Of a stretch of DNA of 55,048 bases, positions 16,502-22,216 are shown in pieces; within the stretch, counting starts at the first letter, position 1, and the number at the start of each line of letters is the position of its first letter. This DNA comes from a virus. Its lineage: Duplodnaviria > Heunggongvirae > Uroviricota > Caudoviricetes. The position numbers and the translations under genes were made by a program. The notes below the pieces were generated by a model, which did no database searches, had not been told where the DNA came from, and saw only the letters and a list, made by a program, of their open reading frames with translations. The stretch spans positions 1-55,048 of the IMG/VR virus record IMGVR_UViG_2541047910_000003. One strand, 5' to 3'.

Positions 16502-17425
16502 TCAGTAGTTATGTACTGAAGGAGGTAATTCTTTGTTCTTAAGTCTTATCCATGCTGAAAGGTTTGTTGGTCCGTCTGGCTCATTAATATCAACATCTCG
16601 TGTATGGTTGATTAAAACATCTCTCGCCATATCGATAATACGGGAGAACTCATAACCGCAGTCATGACATCTGCCGGAATAGTTCGATTGAATTTGTTTT
16701 AGCGCCGGATACAATTCGCGGAATAATGCCTGTGAGCGGTTGGCATAATCCCATAGCCATACAAGGCTGTTTGCTTCTTTTGCAGAAAGCTCGTTGGTTT
16801 TCTTCTCTTGTTTGCCAATGAACTCACCTTCAAGCGGAACTCGAGCTGCAAGTGACAGTGCTTCGGTAAACTGCTCCTCACTGATTTCTTTGTATGAACA
16901 TCCAAAATGGGATTTCAGTGACGACCACATGGTGATCATCGCCTTAGCCTGTTTTTCCTTTGGCAGAGACTGACCGCGACTCATGACGAGTTGTTTAATG
17001 GCTTCCTGCTGTTCAGTGGTGATTTTACCCGGCAACGCCTTTTTAGCTTTGCGTGGGTTAACTACATGACCTTTAGTCCAGTACTCGTATAGCACATCGT
17101 CACACTCTTCCTGATACTGGATTACCTTGTCGCGGATTTCAGGACGGACTTTGTTTGGCTGAATGCTTGAAAGCCAAGCCGCAAACTTACGAAAGGCAAG
17201 GCATATCATTAACTGTTTACCGCCAGCAGAAGGTATTTCGATTTCCGAAATACCTTTGACAAATCTCTGTTTTAATTTAACAAATTGAGCAGCCCAAACC
17301 ATACCCATGCCTTCTACAACGGGTTTCATAGGAACGTAAGGTTCATTGTTAATGCTGACCAAAAAGAGATTTGTTCCGTGGAATGGAACGTTGATTGTAT
17401 GTTCTGCAATTGCTACACTCGTCAT
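16502..17425 (-). CDS. ant: antirepressor Ant
   Basis: 307 aa. PMKPVVEGMGMVWAAQ...NKVRPEIRDKVIQYQEECDDVLYEYWTKG parallels the P22 Ant N-terminal domain. It sits downstream of arc. Confidence 0.85.
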   Translation of the reverse strand: MTSVAIAEHTINVPFHGTNLFLVSINNEPYVPMKPVVEGMGMVWAAQFVKLKQRFVKGISEIEIPSAGGKQLMICLAFRKFAAWLSSIQPNKVRPEIRDKVIQYQEECDDVLYEYWTKGHVVNPRKAKKALPGKITTEQQEAIKQLVMSRGQSLPKEKQAKAMITMWSSLKSHFGCSYKEISEEQFTEALSLAARVPLEGEFIGKQEKKTNELSAKEANSLVWLWDYANRSQALFRELYPALKQIQSNYSGRCHDCGYEFSRIIDMARDVLINHTRDVDINEPDGPTNLSAWIRLKNKELPPSVHNY

Positions 17426-17499
17426 GTCGTTAATTCCTATGCGTGGTTTTACGATACCGAAGCCCTGACTGTTACCGCAGTTGGGGCTTCACTGTTTTT
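17426..17499 (+). ncRNA. sar-like antisense RNA covering the ant translation-initiation region
   Basis: Plus-strand promoter TTGATT (17391-17396), 17 nt, TACACT (17414-17419) inside the 5' end of ant. Terminator gaagccc...gggcttc plus TTTTT at 17459-17499. Same layout as P22 sar. Confidence 0.45.
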
Positions 17500-17710
17500 G
17501 TAAGTCACTGTAGTTATAAAACCACTGACCACTCATTCTTGCTTTGATTGACTCTACTGAATCACGGCAAGGAATGATTCCACCTGACATCATTCTGATC
17601 TCCGTAAATTCACCGCTCCTTACCGACTCAATGCCATTAACGTTAACTAAAGATTTACCTCTACCAAGTGCATTCTCATAGCCAATCTCATCAACCTCAA
17701 TAAACCTCAT
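17489..17710 (-). CDS. hypothetical protein inserted between arc and ant
   Basis: 73-aa ORF whose ATG overlaps the arc stop codon (ATGA). Confidence 0.5.
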   Translation of the reverse strand: MRFIEVDEIGYENALGRGKSLVNVNGIESVRSGEFTEIRMMSGGIIPCRDSVESIKARMSGQWFYNYSDLQKQ

Positions 17711-17865
17711 ACCGTTATCCCCTCTCTCTTCAGGCTGTCCATCACTCGCTTATAAATCTCAGAGTTAACAGATCGCCCGTTCTCTTCAGCTACCTTGCGC
17801 ACCAAATCCAATACTTCTTTAGGCCACCGCAAATTGAACTGCGGCATTTTGCTCATTCCTTTCAT
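17707..17865 (-). CDS. arc: Arc repressor
   Basis: MKGMSKMPQFNLRWPKEVLDLVRKVAEENGRSVNSEIYKRVMDSLKREG is nearly the P22 Arc sequence as I recall it. The track ORF extends upstream to 17928 across the operators. Confidence 0.9.
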   Translation of the reverse strand: MKGMSKMPQFNLRWPKEVLDLVRKVAEENGRSVNSEIYKRVMDSLKREGITV

Positions 17866-17881
17866 ATTCACCTCACAATAT

Positions 17882-17928
17882 GGGTCCACCGTGGACCCAT
17901 TGAGAATATAGTAGAGTGCTTCTATCAT
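17882..17928. promoter_or_regulatory. immI operators: O-mnt palindrome and O-arc, with divergent Pant/Pmnt
   Basis: gggtccaccgtggaccc is a 17-bp palindrome (17882-17898). atagtagagtgcttctatcat (17908-17928) is the reverse complement of the P22 arc operator ATGATAGAAGCACTCTACTAT. Confidence 0.8.
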
Positions 17929-17955
17929 GTCAATACACTAACTTGGGGTGATGGC

Positions 17956-18210
17956 ATGGCTAGAGACGATCCGCACTTTAACTTCCGTATGCCTTTGGAA
18001 GTAAGAGAAAAATTGAAATTAAGAGCAGAGGCTAACGGAAGGTCAATGAACTCTGAGTTATTACAAATCGTTCAGGATGCTCTCTCAAAGCCATCATCAA
18101 TTGTAGGCTATCGAGACGAAGCTGAGCGAGTCGCGGATGAGCAATCTGACGTTGTTAAGAAGATGGTCTTTGAAACGCTGAAAAATATTTATAGCAAAAG
18201 TAAGTTATAG
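17956..18210 (+). CDS. mnt: Mnt repressor
   Basis: MARDDPHFNFRMPLEVREKLKLRAEANGRSMNSELLQIVQDALSKP is nearly the P22 Mnt sequence as I recall it. Confidence 0.9.
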   Translation: MARDDPHFNFRMPLEVREKLKLRAEANGRSMNSELLQIVQDALSKPSSIVGYRDEAERVADEQSDVVKKMVFETLKNIYSKSKL

Positions 18211-18259
18211 GCTTATGACGTACAGTTAACCATATCGATATTGGCTCGCGTGATGACAA

Positions 18260-18979
18260 ATGAAAAAAAGCAATGGACTCACATTAAAACTTGACGGAAC
18301 CACCCCTGGCCAGCTGTCAATGGCTAAGTTGGTCAAGTATATGTCTGCTCTCGTAGATCTATACGGTTCTGCAGATTCTGTTCACTTCGACTGTGTAAGT
18401 GAAGGATCGGCTGACTTAAATGCATGGGTCGATAATGATATTTGTTATAACGCTGTCATAGCAAGGGCCTCTCTCTCAGCCAAAGAGAAATCACCCGCGT
18501 ATCAAAAAATTGTTAATTTACTGGAACATGATGGTTTTTCAGCGAAACTACTCGGACGAAACCACTCAACCATTATCGCATTCCCGCGAGTAAAAAAGGA
18601 GCCAATCCCTTTACTCATAACAAAAACATCAGAAGTTCAAGGAAGGCTATACAGTGTTGGCGGAAAAGACAATTCAATACCTGTGCGTATTGAGGGAGCC
18701 AACGGCGAAACATTCAAGTGCGAGGCAACCCCTGATTTGGCGGCAGCTCTTGGGTCCCATCTATTCAAATATATTAGGGTTAAAGGAGATGGGTGCTGGG
18801 AAAAAAAGAACAACAAATGGGAGCTAAAGAAACTAAAAATAACTTCATTTGTATTGCTCAAAAAATCATCACTCAAGGATGCTATTAATGCTATCAAGCA
18901 AGTTCCTGGAGATCAGTGGTCCGAGGAACGCGATGTTGATTCAATCCTTAGGACTCTGAGGAAGATAAATTGCGAGTAA
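18260..18979 (+). CDS. unknown 239-aa protein, upstream partner of the PIN nuclease
   Basis: ORF begins 50 nt after mnt on the same strand. No motif recognised. AT-rich. Its last 10 nt overlap the PIN gene. Confidence 0.6.
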   Translation: MKKSNGLTLKLDGTTPGQLSMAKLVKYMSALVDLYGSADSVHFDCVSEGSADLNAWVDNDICYNAVIARASLSAKEKSPAYQKIVNLLEHDGFSAKLLGRNHSTIIAFPRVKKEPIPLLITKTSEVQGRLYSVGGKDNSIPVRIEGANGETFKCEATPDLAAALGSHLFKYIRVKGDGCWEKKNNKWELKKLKITSFVLLKKSSLKDAINAIKQVPGDQWSEERDVDSILRTLRKINCE

Positions 18980-19518
18980 TTTTAGATACCAATATTCTGG
19001 TATACCTACTATCAGATATAGAACACGATTATAGATTATCTGACCCTATACTTGGTTCTGAGATTCCAGATGCCAAAAGAAGAGCAGAAGCTCTTGTTGA
19101 TCGAATAGATAACAAGAACGGGACAATCATCGTTCCAACTCCTGTATTGGCGGAGTTTTTAGTTGGAATCCATAAAGATTACCAACAAGAAAAACTGAAT
19201 GTTATCAAATCGTTATCGTGCTTCGAAACTGTATCGTTTGATGAGTTGGCTGCTATTGAATGCGCATCGATACCAACATTAAAAGAATTAAGGAAAATTA
19301 GCACAGAAGGTACAGCAAACAAAATTAAGTTTGACAGACAAATAATAGCAATTGCAAGAGCAATTAATGCTGACGAGGTATGGACTCATGATAAGGGAGT
19401 GTTTGAGCGTTGCAAAAGTCTCAATATTCCTGTGTTCACATTATCATCAATAGAACCAATTCCGGTTCAAAGTCTCATGGAGTTCTTACACGATTCAGAC
19501 GATCAGAGATTACACTAA
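18970..19518 (+). CDS. PIN-domain nuclease (VapC-like, extended to 182 aa)
   Basis: MRVILDTNILVYLL is a classic PIN N-terminus. The acidic quartet is D6, E62 (PVLAEF), D122 (KFDRQIIAIA) and D141 (THDKG). TTG start preceded by GAGGAAG. Confidence 0.75.
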   Translation: MRVILDTNILVYLLSDIEHDYRLSDPILGSEIPDAKRRAEALVDRIDNKNGTIIVPTPVLAEFLVGIHKDYQQEKLNVIKSLSCFETVSFDELAAIECASIPTLKELRKISTEGTANKIKFDRQIIAIARAINADEVWTHDKGVFERCKSLNIPVFTLSSIEPIPVQSLMEFLHDSDDQRLH

Positions 19519-19645
19519 AATATAATTTTTATGCATCCGTGATAATTACATCCGTCACGGATACATAAAGCTATAGCCAAAAGTGGACAAACCTTTATCT
19601 CACTCCAAACCATCTGGTATCCTGCGCAAAACTAAGGAGGTTGGT

Positions 19646-20068
19646 GTGTTTGGTATATTAACGAGAAGCAAGATAAAAAAATTAAGGGCAGAACTCGCCG
19701 AAACACAAAAACTGGCTTCACATTTTTACAAAATGAAATACGACGCTGAAGAGCGTGCATTTGTTGAGTTATGCGATTTATCTATTCGTATGGGAGTAGA
19801 GCCAGATGTAGCGGCAAAAACCCAACAAGGCATTGATATACTTGCAGATGTTGTTTTAAACAGGCAATATGCGTTTTATCTAAACGAGAAGGCCATTCAG
19901 ATTTACTCTCAAATCTTCCTCCTAGAAAAAAGAAGAGGAACTCACGATCGAGAAGAGTGGTTAAATGAAGTTGTTAAAAAATCTGGCTGGGAAGTTGTTT
20001 CATCAGAGCTACCTCTTATTTGTGCTGATTTAATCGAAGAGGCAAAAGAGCGCCTATCCGATGGCTAA
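19646..20068 (+). CDS. hypothetical 140-aa protein (third gene of the moron cluster)
   Basis: GTG start 5 nt after a strong AAGGAGG. The track ORF is open from 19583. Helical and soluble-looking. It converges on gp16 with a hairpin at 20072-20087. Confidence 0.5.
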   Translation: MFGILTRSKIKKLRAELAETQKLASHFYKMKYDAEERAFVELCDLSIRMGVEPDVAAKTQQGIDILADVVLNRQYAFYLNEKAIQIYSQIFLLEKRRGTHDREEWLNEVVKKSGWEVVSSELPLICADLIEEAKERLSDG

Positions 20069-20092
20069 ACGAATCCATCCGTGGATTACTAA

Positions 20093-22216
20093 TTACTCCC
20101 GCTCCATTCCGCTTAGCGATGCCACAATCCCAGCCCTCGCTAAGCGCTGAAACTCTTCGTTTCCGACGGTATCACGTATCGCTTTTACAGCAGCTTTATT
20201 TGCCATAAATCTGCGTTCAGCCGCCGCTAATGCACCATCACTTGCCCCAACCTTAACTGCCTTTGTTGCCTCTTGAACAGCCTTTTCAATAGCGTAACGA
20301 CCACTGCGGGATGCAGCTAACTTTTCTATCGTCCCTTTAGCTATAGATCCAGAAACAGCCCCCACAACACCGCCAACAATCCCTCCACCAGTGGTGCCAA
20401 CAATAGCCCCTGATGTTGAATTGCCTATTGCATTGAGAACTGTCATGACAGCTTTTGGCAGTCCTTGCTCAAGAGAGTTAATTGCCGGTATAGAGCGCCC
20501 CGTATGCTCTACATATCGCAGTGGTCTGGTTGCTGCTCTGGCAAGGTCGCTGTATGCCCTAGCAATCTTACCCATTTCTGGCGAGTGCTTGCTAATGGCA
20601 GTAATATTCTGCGGCGTAAGGATCGACGCTATATGGAATACGCCAGCAGACTCTGATTTACCGCCACGCCCCCCTTGCGATACCGCATCTTGTAATATTG
20701 ATGCAATTGCTGGAGATCGCTCAGACTCTGGCAGTGCGCCAATAATCTGATGAAACTTTCCTGTCCCACTTTTTGATGAATTTTGCAAGGCTTTAATACC
20801 ATCAGTGACTAACTGATCAGTTGCAAGGTTTCTAAACGCTGCTTCAGCCTGTTCTTGTGCTGTAAATCTTGCTTTTGACAGATCATTAGCTTTTTGCCAG
20901 TCATCAAGAAAACCGCCATTTTGAGCCATTATGCGCATATCTTCCGTTGCTGCATCACGAAGCTCCGCCATGCGCCTTGCCGTATTTGCCTCACCAGACC
21001 TTATATACTTCTGCTCAGCGTCAGCAAGTTTACTTCGCCATGCCTTCATGGCATCAAACGTGATTCCTTTTTTACCAGTTTTAGCATAAGCAGATGCAAA
21101 TTGTTTCATCTCAGGAGTTAGCGGCATACCAGCCAAAATATCACCCTGAATTGTAGCGTTCAGGTTTGACATTCTGGCCTTTGCGTCAGGCATCGTGGAG
21201 CGGACGCTATCCCATGCTGCCTTTTCTGAGTTCTTCATTTTATCAATACTTGCTAAAACCCTTTGTTTTATGGCTGCACTTTTTTCTGATGCAGATCCAG
21301 CCTCAGCACCAAGTTCATCAAGTGCTGAGTGGAATTTCGACTGTATTTCACTAAAAGCCCTAGTATGTGCATCCTGAACAATTCCTGGTTCGGATGCCAA
21401 TATCCCTTCGGCTTGTGCAATTCCACGACTTCCAGATCGCATTCCTGGTGTTAATGCGTTTATATCAATTCCAGCAGACTCAGCCGCTTTTGCTACATCT
21501 TCGGACACATTAGCGGCCTGACTGGCAATTGACTGACGCCCAGCACCTGACTTTGCCATCCTGGAAACATCATTAGCAGAATTCAGTGCTGCACCACCAA
21601 GAGCCTGTGAAACCCTTGGCGCAATAACGCGCCCGACACCAGAAAGAACGCCTTGAGCACCAATATTGACACCACCGTTAATGGCAGCATTTTGTGCAAA
21701 GTTGCCATCCTGATTTGCAGCATCAGCAAGAGAACCTGCAATCATGTTTCCTGCGGAACCGATATCTCCAGCGAGCTTTGCTGGCGCTCCAGCAGCTTTT
21801 GCCGCTGTGCCAATTGGCAGGAGATACCCACCAATTGTTTCACCGGCTTGCGCGTAAGGGTCTGTCGGTCGATCGACTGGACGATAGACATCATCCAATA
21901 CTTTTGGCCCACCAAGCCCATGACTGATTGCATTAATCAGACTTGCGCCACCCTGCAATACGTCAAATGGTATGTTTACCAGACCACGACCAGCCTGTTC
22001 TGCAATTTGCCCTGCACTTTGACCACCTGTGAGCCAATCGCCAGCTTGTTGCATCAATGATGGTTCTTCACGTGCTGGTTCATTATTGGCCTGATTAACT
22101 GTTTGTTGCTGAACAGCCTGACCAGCAAAATACTCATCAATGGCGGTGCCAATATCTTCGGTGCTCGTACCATCAGGGAAGGTAAATGTCTTACCGTTTG
22201 CAGTTACTTTCATCAT
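20093..22216 (-). CDS. ejection (internal virion) protein, P22 gp16 equivalent
   Basis: 707 aa, Gly/Ala-rich. It is the last of three consecutive ejection-protein genes upstream of the immI region. Confidence 0.8.

What the first reader, a model, noticed from the sequence alone, without database searches (positions are those of the whole stretch)
17956..20092. Operon downstream of mnt in the sieA position: unknown 239-aa protein coupled to an atypical PIN nuclease plus a 140-aa ORF, a candidate new prophage exclusion/abortive-infection system
Seen in sequence:
- Three plus-strand genes (18260-18979, 18970-19518, 19646-20068) sit between the last ejection-protein gene (gp16 equivalent) and mnt.
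- They share the strand of mnt and oppose the whole late operon.
- The first gene starts only 50 nt after the mnt stop, and I saw no terminator in between.
- The cluster is visibly more AT-rich than both flanks.
- The PIN gene overlaps the 239-aa gene by 10 nt. It starts with TTG after a GAGGAAG Shine-Dalgarno, which suggests translational coupling and low nuclease dosage.
- The PIN protein keeps the full acidic quartet (D6, E62, D122, D141). At 182 aa it is longer than a typical VapC, with an insertion between the first two acidic residues.
- The upstream partner is about three times the size of VapB-type antitoxins. I could not see an RHH, AbrB or HTH motif in it.
- The third ORF has a strong AAGGAGG-GTG start. 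The region between PIN and the third ORF holds a hairpin (ATCCGTGA/TCACGGAT at 19533-19560), and a second hairpin lies at 20072-20087.

Established knowledge:
- Mnt is made in P22 lysogens.
- P22 carries the superinfection-exclusion gene sieA at this locus.
- PIN domains are Mg-dependent RNases used as toxins or effectors.

Inference: this is a lysogen-expressed effector (PIN) held in check or triggered by a novel sensor/antitoxin (the 239-aa protein), possibly with a third component.
Basis: partly seen in the sequence, partly recalled or inferred. Interest (0 to 1): 0.85.

Follow-up and report, generated by a model that had tools for sequence, protein, structure and literature searches.

The report
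Prophage PIN nuclease with OB-fold partner
Next to the mnt repressor gene of a P22-like E. coli prophage sits a widespread but unnamed and untested two-gene unit, a PIN RNA-cutting enzyme paired with a partner that has a nucleic-acid-binding fold, which is probably a toxin-antitoxin-like anti-phage module; the third gene is unrelated swappable cargo.

Summary
The sequence observations hold. The genes mnt, a 239-aa ORF (orfA), a TTG-started PIN gene overlapping it by 10 nt, and a 140-aa ORF (orfC) lie between immI and gp16, where P22 carries orf59a-sieA.

orfA+PIN is a real, obligately paired module. PIN follows orfA in about 73 of 76 orfA-seeded loci. An orfA-family gene precedes PIN in 76 of 76 informative PIN-seeded loci. 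The tight coupling and a non-ATG PIN start are kept across Enterobacterales, Pseudomonas, Marinobacter and metagenomes.

orfA belongs to a large unnamed family (1,557 representative clusters) with no Pfam, PADLOC or PDB sequence match. Its model shows a ferredoxin-like N-domain, an SSB/RPA-type OB fold and a conserved W/R C-terminal tail.

Outside E. coli the pair usually sits directly behind a CI-type repressor, the position rexAB holds in lambda. Some copies lie beside Wadjet, R-M, ShosTA or MADS genes.

The PIN is listed as an untested "predicted novel defense gene" by DefensePredictor (2026).

orfC is not a component. It is an E. coli ORFan in a cargo slot that other prophages fill with hkcB-like or membrane proteins.

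Most likely this is an atypical VapC-type toxin-antitoxin or abortive-infection module. Function is inferred, not shown.

The parts
17900..17928 (+). Pmnt-like sigma-70 promoter (TTGAGA-17-TATCAT, 10/12), divergent from the Pant-like site on the minus strand (17933..17905, 11/12). The operator palindrome ATGGGTCCAC/GTGGACCCAT lies at 17880-17900. This is the only promoter-like site upstream of orfA on this strand.
17956..18210 (+). mnt (84 aa; Arc-like RHH domain plus the Repressor_Mnt C-terminal domain). It is the lysogeny-maintenance repressor of immI and the first gene of the presumed transcript that carries the module.
18211..18259 (+). 49-nt mnt-orfA spacer with no promoter-like or terminator-like site and no significant fold (z = +0.13). 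It is identical in the E. coli copies.
18260..18979 (+). orfA, the 239-aa partner protein. Residues 1-110 form a ferredoxin-like alpha/beta domain, 118-199 an SSB/RPA-type OB fold, and 205-239 a low-confidence helical tail with family-wide conserved W220 and R234. It belongs to an unnamed family of about 1,557 representative clusters.
18958..18972 (+). Translational coupling signal: GAGGAAG Shine-Dalgarno inside the 3' end of orfA, followed by the TTG start of PIN. A non-ATG start and a -10 to +2 nt spacing are kept in nearly all of more than 60 loci.
18970..19518 (+). PIN-domain nuclease, 182 aa, PF01850. The catalytic residues D6, E62, D122 and D141 are conserved, together with the family motifs IPTPVLAE and KFDRQII.
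19519..19645 (+). Conserved 127-nt leader of the third-gene slot. It holds a weak promoter-like site (19494-21), the hairpin 19528-19569 and the AAGGAGG Shine-Dalgarno. It is near-identical (three single-base differences) in prophages that carry four different third genes, and homology ends just after the GTG start.
19646..20068 (+). orfC, 140 aa, soluble, with no family match. It is an E. coli-restricted ORFan occupying the swappable cargo slot next to gp16 and is NOT a conserved part of the orfA-PIN module.

Best explanation
Positions 18260-19518 encode an obligately paired two-gene module carried as cargo in a prophage lysogeny-repressor operon.

Shown:
- A VapC-class PIN nuclease with an intact acidic active site is translationally coupled, through a conserved weak TTG or GTG start, to an upstream 239-aa partner.
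- The partner has a ferredoxin-like domain, a nucleic-acid-binding-type OB fold and a conserved C-terminal tail.
- The pair never separates.
- It sits directly behind mnt here and behind CI-type repressors elsewhere.

Inferred:
- It is transcribed in the lysogen by read-through from Pmnt.
- The partner, made first and in excess, holds PIN inactive through its C-terminal W220/R234 tail, as VapB and FitA tails plug VapC and FitB active sites.
- On superinfection the partner is titrated or depleted. Either its OB domain binds a phage nucleic acid or an SSB-type trigger, or its synthesis stops after host shut-off.
- Freed PIN then cuts RNA (tRNA, rRNA or mRNA), translation halts and the infection aborts.

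The 140-aa ORF is separate cargo.
For: - Pairing: PIN follows orfA in about 73 of 76 orfA-seeded loci. An orfA-family ORF precedes PIN in 76 of 80 PIN-seeded metagenome loci, and the other 4 are contig ends. Four distant PINs (31-39% identity) all have orfA-family partners at E 1e-45 to 1e-94.
- Coupling: the PIN start is TTG or GTG and lies -10 to +2 nt from the orfA stop in nearly all loci.
- Active site: D6, E62, D122 and D141 are invariant. PF01850 scores 40.8 bits against a 23.6-bit cut-off.
- Lysogen-expressed position: the pair follows mnt with no terminator. Of 35 upstream same-strand genes elsewhere, 19 are Peptidase_S24 and 17 HTH_3 repressors. The cultured phage Ostro has the order cro, CI, orfA, 'nuclease'.
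- Defence context: JetA/B, type I R-M, ShosA and MADS neighbours occur in a minority of loci, and Mrr_cat or a DEAD/MZB helicase in others.
- Decay asymmetry: the two degraded loci lost the PIN catalytic core, while an intact PIN without orfA was never seen.
- Retention in decaying prophages: the pair stays at least 99% identical in prophages broken by IS elements.
- DefensePredictor log-odds are about 6.8 for this exact PIN.
Against: - There are no experimental data for this pair.
- There is no PADLOC hit, and the defence-gene neighbourhood signal has small counts and no formal background.
- NCBIfam VapC models score far below their cut-offs (27 bits against 140).
- The partner has no recognisable DNA-binding antitoxin domain. 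Its tail's low pLDDT may simply reflect flexibility.
- The orfA-PIN contact was not modelled because no multimer tool was available.
- The one validated E. coli two-gene PIN system with an unknown partner (DS-5) is reported NOT to behave as a TA: deleting the partner abolished defence without toxicity.
- The pair is in only 33 of 5,426 complete E. coli genomes as a single allele, so recency alone could explain its intactness.
- Co-transcription with mnt is inferred only from the absence of signals.
Confidence: 0.55

Rival explanations
1. Two-subunit nuclease rather than a TA. orfA is an obligatory activator or substrate-recruiting subunit whose OB fold delivers RNA or ssDNA to PIN. PIN alone is inactive, both proteins are needed for defence, and activation is by a phage cue.
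For: - The validated DS-5 system (PIN plus an unknown partner) behaves this way.
- The OB fold is of the SSB/RPA nucleic-acid-binding type.
- The OB core residues G128, G134, G135, G176, W180, R182 and W187 are the most conserved part of orfA.
- Pairing is strict in both directions.
Against: - The partner-first gene order with a conserved weak, coupled PIN start is the classic antitoxin-in-excess layout.
- The conserved basic/aromatic C-terminal tail resembles toxin-plugging tails.
- Decay removes the PIN core while orfA stays intact in L023.
- The DS-5 proteins are different: a 166-aa DUF5830 partner and a PIN of about 380 aa.
Confidence: 0.25
2. Plain addiction or stabilisation module. It is a VapBC-like TA that kills or arrests cells that lose the prophage or island, or that stabilises the repressor operon, and has no anti-phage role.
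For: - The architecture is TA-like.
- It occurs on mobile elements of several kinds: prophages, an IS-flanked islet and a Fic/IS island.
- It is retained in defective prophages.
Against: - Its consistent placement in the lysogen-expressed exclusion slot behind CI or Mnt, where rexAB and sieA sit (PMC10883804).
- Some copies lie beside known defence systems.
- The machine-learning defence prediction.
- Many TAs on prophages do both, so this rival is not exclusive.
Confidence: 0.13
3. Phage-autonomous regulatory RNase. The pair processes or degrades phage or host transcripts to tune the lysis-lysogeny switch or induction, as RexA biases the lambda switch, and does not act against other phages.
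For: - The module is embedded in repressor operons next to cro/cI or arc/mnt switches.
- The PIN could target immunity-region RNAs. A sar antisense RNA is present nearby.
Against: - Many copies are outside prophages: the Pectobacterium islet, the Binatia IS1595 context, and loci next to Wadjet or R-M genes.
- The pair is absent from most P22-like phages, so it is not part of the switch.
Confidence: 0.05
4. Three-component system in which the 140-aa ORF works with orfA and PIN.
For: - It is on the same strand.
- It has a strong Shine-Dalgarno.
- It lies 127 nt downstream of PIN.
Against: - It is absent from all non-E. coli loci and from many E. coli loci that keep orfA+PIN at least 99% identical.
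- It is replaced by hkcB-like or membrane/secreted ORFs behind an identical leader.
- It has only 3 clusters in 5.8 billion proteins.
Confidence: 0.02

Closest known systems
VapBC type II toxin-antitoxin systems (PIN toxin VapC with VapB antitoxin; FitAB)
   Same: - A PF01850 PIN with the four conserved acidic residues.
- The partner gene is upstream and overlaps or abuts the toxin gene.
- The partner ends in a flexible tail with a conserved Arg. From my own knowledge, the C-terminal tails of FitA and VapB reach the toxin's acidic pocket.
- NCBI names relatives 'VapC family toxin'.
   Different: - The partner is 239 aa with a ferredoxin-like domain and an OB fold, and has no RHH, AbrB, Phd or HTH DNA-binding domain.
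- The PIN is 182 aa with a conserved segment of about 30 aa between the first two acidic residues.
- It scores far below NCBIfam VapC cut-offs.
- Transcription appears to be supplied by the prophage repressor's promoter rather than by an autoregulated TA promoter.
DS-5 (working ID PN12) of DefensePredictor, Science 2026 (PMC13092281)
   Same: - A two-gene E. coli anti-phage system made of a PIN nuclease and an uncharacterised partner encoded upstream.
- PIN catalytic mutants (D7A, E44A) lose defence.
- The same paper lists this window's PIN (WP_001263856.1) as a predicted, untested defence gene.
   Different: - The DS-5 partner is 166 aa with DUF5830 and an AcrIF4-like domain, and its PIN protein is about 380 aa (transcription unit of 1,648 bp).
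- orfA has no DUF5830 hit at E<=0.1.
- DS-5 is reported not to be a TA.
- The DS-5 sequences could not be fetched for a direct comparison.
Lambda RexAB and P22 SieA (lysogen-expressed exclusion genes beside repressor genes)
   Same: - Genomic logic: cargo expressed from the prophage, placed directly downstream of cI (rexAB) or between mnt and gene 16 (sieA).
- These genes protect the lysogen from other phages (PMC10883804).
   Different: - There is no sequence or fold relationship.
- SieA and RexB are inner-membrane proteins, whereas orfA, PIN and orfC have no hydrophobic segment (maximum KD19 of 1.19 or less).
- The effector here is a cytoplasmic nuclease.
SSB, RPA and PriB oligonucleotide-binding folds
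   Different: - Sequence identity is only 5-16% and there is no sequence-level match.
- The domain is flanked by other domains.
- Nucleic-acid binding is untested.
Prophage-borne TA-like sensors in which the antitoxin part senses a phage product (e.g. CapRel-SJ46; from my own knowledge)
   Same: The concept is the same: a prophage-encoded toxin held off by a cognate domain that doubles as the phage sensor.
   Different: - The toxin chemistry differs (tRNA pyrophosphorylation there, a PIN nuclease here).
- CapRel is a fused single protein, whereas this is a two-gene module.
- No trigger is known here.

Membership tests
PIN domain superfamily, PF01850 (VapC-like) | Pfam PF01850 match above the gathering threshold | tested here: met
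   E=4.1e-10, 40.8 bits against a cut-off of 23.6, residues 36-147
PIN domain superfamily, PF01850 (VapC-like) | Four conserved acidic active-site residues | tested here: met
   D6, E62, D122 and D141 are invariant in 38 diverse relatives and 98% conserved in 52 locus-derived sequences
VapBC type II TA | NCBIfam VapC equivalog or subfamily model above its curated cut-off | tested here: not met
   NF047863 scores 27.1 bits against 140, TIGR00028 19.9 against 73.6, and NF047959 14.8 against 80
VapBC type II TA | Small (about 70-90 aa) upstream antitoxin with an RHH, AbrB, Phd/YefM or HTH DNA-binding domain | tested here: not met
   The partner is 239 aa. No Pfam or NCBIfam domain was found in it or in 60 family members. 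The folds are ferredoxin-like plus OB.
VapBC type II TA | Antitoxin-first operon with overlapping or abutting genes | tested here: met
   There is a 10-nt overlap here, and -10 to +2 nt spacing in more than 60 loci
VapBC type II TA | The toxin arrests growth and the cognate partner neutralises it by direct binding | not testable with these tools
   This needs expression and co-purification experiments. No multimer structure prediction was available.
Known anti-phage defence systems (PADLOC-DB 2.0.0) | An HMM match of any component to a catalogued system | tested here: not met
   mnt, orfA, PIN and orfC have no hits at E<=0.1. Among 60 orfA relatives only 2 stray single-member hits appeared.
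DS-5 (DefensePredictor) | Partner with DUF5830 (PF19148) and an AcrIF4-like domain, and a PIN protein of about 380 aa | tested here: not met
   orfA and its relatives have no DUF5830 hit. The lengths are 239 and 182 aa against 166 and about 380 aa. A direct sequence comparison was not possible.
SieA superinfection-exclusion proteins | Small inner-membrane protein encoded between mnt and gene 16 | tested here: not met
   The position is the same, but orfA, PIN and orfC lack any hydrophobic segment and match only PHROGs of unknown function or none
SSB/RPA-type OB-fold proteins | Five-stranded OB barrel that superposes on ssDNA-binding OB domains | tested here: met
SSB/RPA-type OB-fold proteins | Binds single-stranded nucleic acid | not testable with these tools
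   This needs EMSA or fluorescence anisotropy with purified orfA

The most novel reading that the evidence does not exclude
orfA may be a direct nucleic-acid or SSB-type sensor. Its OB fold would recognise phage ssDNA, replication intermediates or RNA, and this would license the PIN nuclease. That would define a large (more than 1,500 clusters), previously unnamed class of sensor-coupled PIN immune modules. These modules characteristically hitch-hike on prophage repressor operons (behind CI or Mnt), so they are switched on exactly when the prophage is silent.
Probability: 0.25. Interest if true: 0.75.

Novelty: new variant of a known kind. Interest (0 to 1): 0.6.

Why it matters
If it is confirmed as a defence system:
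- It would add a widespread PIN-effector system with a new kind of partner (ferredoxin-like domain, OB fold and tail) to the anti-phage repertoire.
- It would give a name and function to an orphan protein family of at least 1,500 representative clusters.
- It would extend the rule that the slot directly behind a prophage repressor gene (rexAB in lambda, sieA in P22) is a general hotspot for exclusion cargo, from E. coli P22-like phages to Pseudomonas lambdoid phages.

It is directly testable:
- The module is 1.3 kb.
- It occurs in ST131-type clinical E. coli.
- It also occurs in a cultured P. aeruginosa temperate phage (Ostro).

The conserved weak, coupled PIN start and the W220/R234 tail give precise mutational handles for separating the antitoxin model from the co-factor model.

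Tried and rejected
- Named-family searches found nothing for orfA or orfC. Pfam, NCBIfam, PADLOC and PHROGs gave no match or only 'unknown function'. Scans of 60 diverse orfA relatives found nothing consistent. PDB sequence searches with the single sequence and with a profile gave only noise. The PIN had no PDB sequence hit at E<=1.
- Megablast against 50,697 phage records found only mnt matches. tblastn found two Pseudomonas phages.
- A single PADLOC Cas5g hit in one family member was rejected as a stray.
- The BFVD search found no full-length viral structural relative (TM-score 0.29 or lower).
- The AFDB50 library was not available.
- Rfam found nothing in the cassette. The post-PIN hairpin matches no family.
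- The hairpin at 20072-20087 was rejected as a terminator.
- An own promoter in the mnt-orfA gap was not found.
- Literature: no paper mentions the WP accessions in its main text, and no paper describes a PIN plus OB-fold prophage system. Brenes & Laub 2025 (Cell Host Microbe) is not held, so I could not check whether one of its systems is this pair.
- DS-5 was considered as the same system and rejected on domain content and sizes.
- A three-component system including orfC was rejected.
Full report
**1. What is in the sequence**

| Feature | Coordinates | Strand |
|---|---|---|
| ant | 16502-17425 | - |
| 73-aa ORF | 17489-17710 | - |
| arc | 17707-17928 | - |
| mnt | 17956-18210 | + |
| orfA (239 aa) | 18260-18979 | + |
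| PIN (182 aa) | 18970-19518 | + |
| orfC (140 aa) | 19646-20068 | + |
| gp16 | 20093-22216 | - |

- Family scans confirm the identities. Mnt matches Arc plus Repressor_Mnt, ant matches P22_AR_N/C, and gp16 matches phrog_770 'DNA transfer protein'.
- Rfam finds the P22-type sar antisense RNA at 17427-17493 (77.7 bits).
- A divergent Pant/Pmnt-like promoter pair flanks a perfect operator palindrome at 17880-17900.
- This is therefore an intact P22-type immI region. The three plus-strand ORFs lie where P22 has orf59a and sieA (PMC10883804).

The detailed observations also hold:
- The mnt-orfA gap is 49 nt with no promoter-like or terminator-like signal.
- PIN starts at a TTG that overlaps orfA by 10 nt, behind GAGGAAG.
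- The post-PIN hairpin is real: 15-nt arms, 93% complementary, at 19528-19569.
- The hairpin at 20072-20087 is no better than shuffled sequence.
- GC content is 36.8% for PIN and 38.8% for orfC against 48% for gp16. orfA (42.1%) is not lower than the immI genes.

**2. The conserved unit is orfA+PIN, not three genes**

In E. coli:
- In complete E. coli genomes the pair occurs in 33 of 5,426 genomes, always at least 99% identical and always in P22-like prophages behind mnt.
- Only 19 genomes carry the full three-gene stretch.
- The others have no annotated third gene (L002) or a different one (L003: a 109-aa ORF of phrog_5962, the same family as CUS-3 hkcB; L037: phrog_2651).
- An alignment of four variants shows a leader that is near-identical in all four (three single-base differences), through the Shine-Dalgarno, and an identical GTG start, with complete divergence right after the start codon.
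- The alternative products are membrane or secreted proteins, whereas orfC is soluble.
- orfC has only three near-identical clusters among 5.8 billion proteins and no family match.
- CUS-3 and UPF_BP1 carry still other genes between mnt and gp16.
- Cassette exchange at this locus is therefore confirmed, and orfC is independent cargo in the slot next to gp16.

Beyond E. coli:
- A word-indexed search found 58 orfA clusters in Enterobacterales and Pseudomonas.
- A profile search of 1.84 billion representatives found 1,557 at E<=1e-3 and 297 at E<=1e-30, nearly all 230-260 aa.
- In 76 orfA-seeded loci from genomes and IMG/VR, PIN follows directly in about 73. Identities to the window proteins fall in parallel: 70/76, 55/55, 43/41 and 25/31 % for orfA/PIN.
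- The reverse test used a PIN-seeded scan of metagenome contigs, which found at least 485 relatives. Among the best 80, 76 have an orfA-family ORF immediately upstream, and the other four are contig ends with fewer than 150 nt upstream.
- Four distant PINs (Providencia, Marinobacterium, Binatia and one other genome) also have orfA-family partners at E 1e-45 to 1e-94.
- The PIN start is TTG or GTG and lies -10 to +2 nt from the orfA stop in nearly every locus. Keeping a weak, coupled start across pairs only about 40% identical is a selected feature.

**3. What the proteins are**

PIN:
- It matches PF01850 above threshold.
- D6, E62, D122 and D141 are invariant, with the family motifs IPTPVLAE and KFDRQII. 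The segment between D6 and E62 is conserved, with R38 invariant.
- It scores far below the NCBIfam VapC cut-offs, although NCBI names many relatives 'VapC family toxin'.

orfA:
- It has no Pfam, NCBIfam, PADLOC or PDB-sequence match, either alone or as 60 diverse relatives.
- AlphaFold2 gives a confident model (pLDDT 82; the N-domain alone scores 92).
- Residues 205-239 form a low-confidence two-helix tail.
- Across a family with 27% mean identity the most conserved positions are the OB-core residues G128, G134, G135, G176, W180, R182 and W187, and the tail residues W220 (88%) and R234 (98%).

None of the three proteins has a transmembrane segment.

**4. Where the module lives**

- Of 35 same-strand upstream genes outside E. 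coli, 19 carry Peptidase_S24 and 17 HTH_3. These are CI/LexA-type prophage repressors, usually with a divergent cro-like gene.
- The cultured P. aeruginosa temperate phage Ostro has the order cro, CI-like repressor, orfA homolog, 'nuclease'.
- This is the position of rexAB in lambda. In the window the module sits behind the second immunity repressor, Mnt. The common theme is placement directly downstream of, and co-oriented with, a lysogeny-maintenance repressor.
- Other copies lie in chromosomal islets beside Fic and IS elements, IS1595, Mrr_cat or a DEAD/Helicase_C/MZB giant protein.
- A census of 135 flanking ORFs from about 36 diverse loci found JetA/JetB, type I R-M subunits, ShosA and MADS proteins, in two to three loci each. 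This suggests defence-island association, but I computed no background.
- In E. coli the pair stays intact in prophages already broken by ISEc52 or IS66 insertions.

**5. Mechanism**

Shown:
- An obligate, translationally coupled pair.
- An intact PIN active site.
- A partner with an OB fold and a conserved tail.
- Placement in a repressor operon.

Inferred best model (about 0.55):
- This is an atypical type II TA-like abortive-infection or exclusion module.
- The partner is made first and in excess, and neutralises PIN through its W220/R234 tail. From my own knowledge of VapBC and FitAB structures, antitoxin C-terminal tails with an Arg reach the PIN acidic pocket.
- It releases PIN when a superinfecting phage supplies a ligand for the OB domain or shuts off its synthesis.
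- The TA logic is supported by the gene order, the weak coupled toxin start and the decay pattern. In L023 orfA is intact but PIN keeps only about 46 N-terminal positions. In L029 both genes are degraded. An intact PIN without orfA never appeared in about 150 informative loci.

Main rival (about 0.25):
- orfA is a required co-factor or substrate recruiter, as reported for the DS-5 partner in DefensePredictor. There, deleting the partner abolished defence without toxicity.

Minor rivals:
- Pure addiction (about 0.13).
- A phage-autonomous regulatory RNase (about 0.05).

**6. Comparison with what is known, and novelty**

- The closest kind is VapBC. The PIN criteria are met, but the defining small DNA-binding antitoxin is tested and not met, so I do not file the pair as a VapBC member.
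- It is not in PADLOC 2.0.
- DS-5 is analogous but is built from different proteins.
- DefensePredictor's Table S10 lists exactly this PIN (WP_001263856.1) as a 'Predicted novel defense gene' (log-odds about 6.8). It was not among the cloned or validated systems that my searches of the paper and its supplements turned up. The defence idea has therefore been flagged computationally but not named, described or validated.
- I could not read Brenes & Laub 2025 or run current DefenseFinder, so a recent naming cannot be excluded.

Verdict: a real, widespread, uncharacterised two-gene PIN module, best classed as a new variant of a known kind (a PIN-toxin TA or abortive-infection system with a new partner architecture). 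Interest is moderate to high at 0.6.

Noticed in passing
window 17427-17493 (+): Rfam sar RNA (RF00262, 77.7 bits, E=8e-16), the P22 immI antisense RNA. It overlaps the ant ribosome-binding region and the 3' end of the 73-aa ORF. A terminator-like hairpin at 17459-17490 coincides with its 3' end.
   Followed up: partly
window 17489-17710 (-): An extra 73-aa ORF (phrog_11805, unknown function, no Pfam match) lies between arc and ant and overlaps arc by 4 nt. It is also annotated in the related E. coli prophages. From memory, P22 itself has arc and ant adjacent.
   Followed up: no
window 19519-19648; L002, L003, L037: The third-gene slot keeps a near-identical 127-nt leader (three single-base differences among four prophages), hairpin, Shine-Dalgarno and GTG start in prophages that carry four unrelated coding sequences. 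Homology breaks right after the start codon, which suggests recombination at a fixed junction. Three of the four cargo proteins are membrane or secreted, so this slot rather than orfA-PIN may be the true sieA/hkc-type exclusion slot.
   Followed up: partly
L009 and L012 (Pantoea latae NZ_MWUE01000022.1; also IMGVR_UViG_2791355159_000004): Two divergent copies of the orfA-PIN pair (70% and 57% identity to the window orfA) lie about 12 kb apart on one contig or predicted viral region. One follows an S24-type repressor-like ORF.
   Followed up: no
L001 (E. coli Ecol_AZ146) and L003 (TW14425): The host prophages are decaying: ISEc52 is inserted in the ejection-protein genes and IS66 is inserted in ant. 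The orfA-PIN pair nevertheless remains at least 99% identical and intact.
   Followed up: partly
window 17880-17900: A perfect 10/10 palindrome, ATGGGTCCAC-G-GTGGACCCAT, lies between the divergent Pant-like and Pmnt-like promoters. It is presumably the Mnt or Arc operator.
   Followed up: no
window 20110-20146: A perfect 10-nt inverted repeat (CGCTTAGCGA / TCGCTAAGCG, 17-nt loop) lies inside the 3' end of gp16, just beyond the convergent end of orfC. It could act on read-through transcription from the plus strand.
   Followed up: no
L083 4643-8471; L079 2104-3024: Distant copies of the pair sit next to a 771-aa protein and a roughly 1,400-aa DEAD/Helicase_C/MZB protein (L083), and next to an Mrr_cat/NA-iREase1 nuclease (L079). 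These are possible defence-island neighbours.
   Followed up: no
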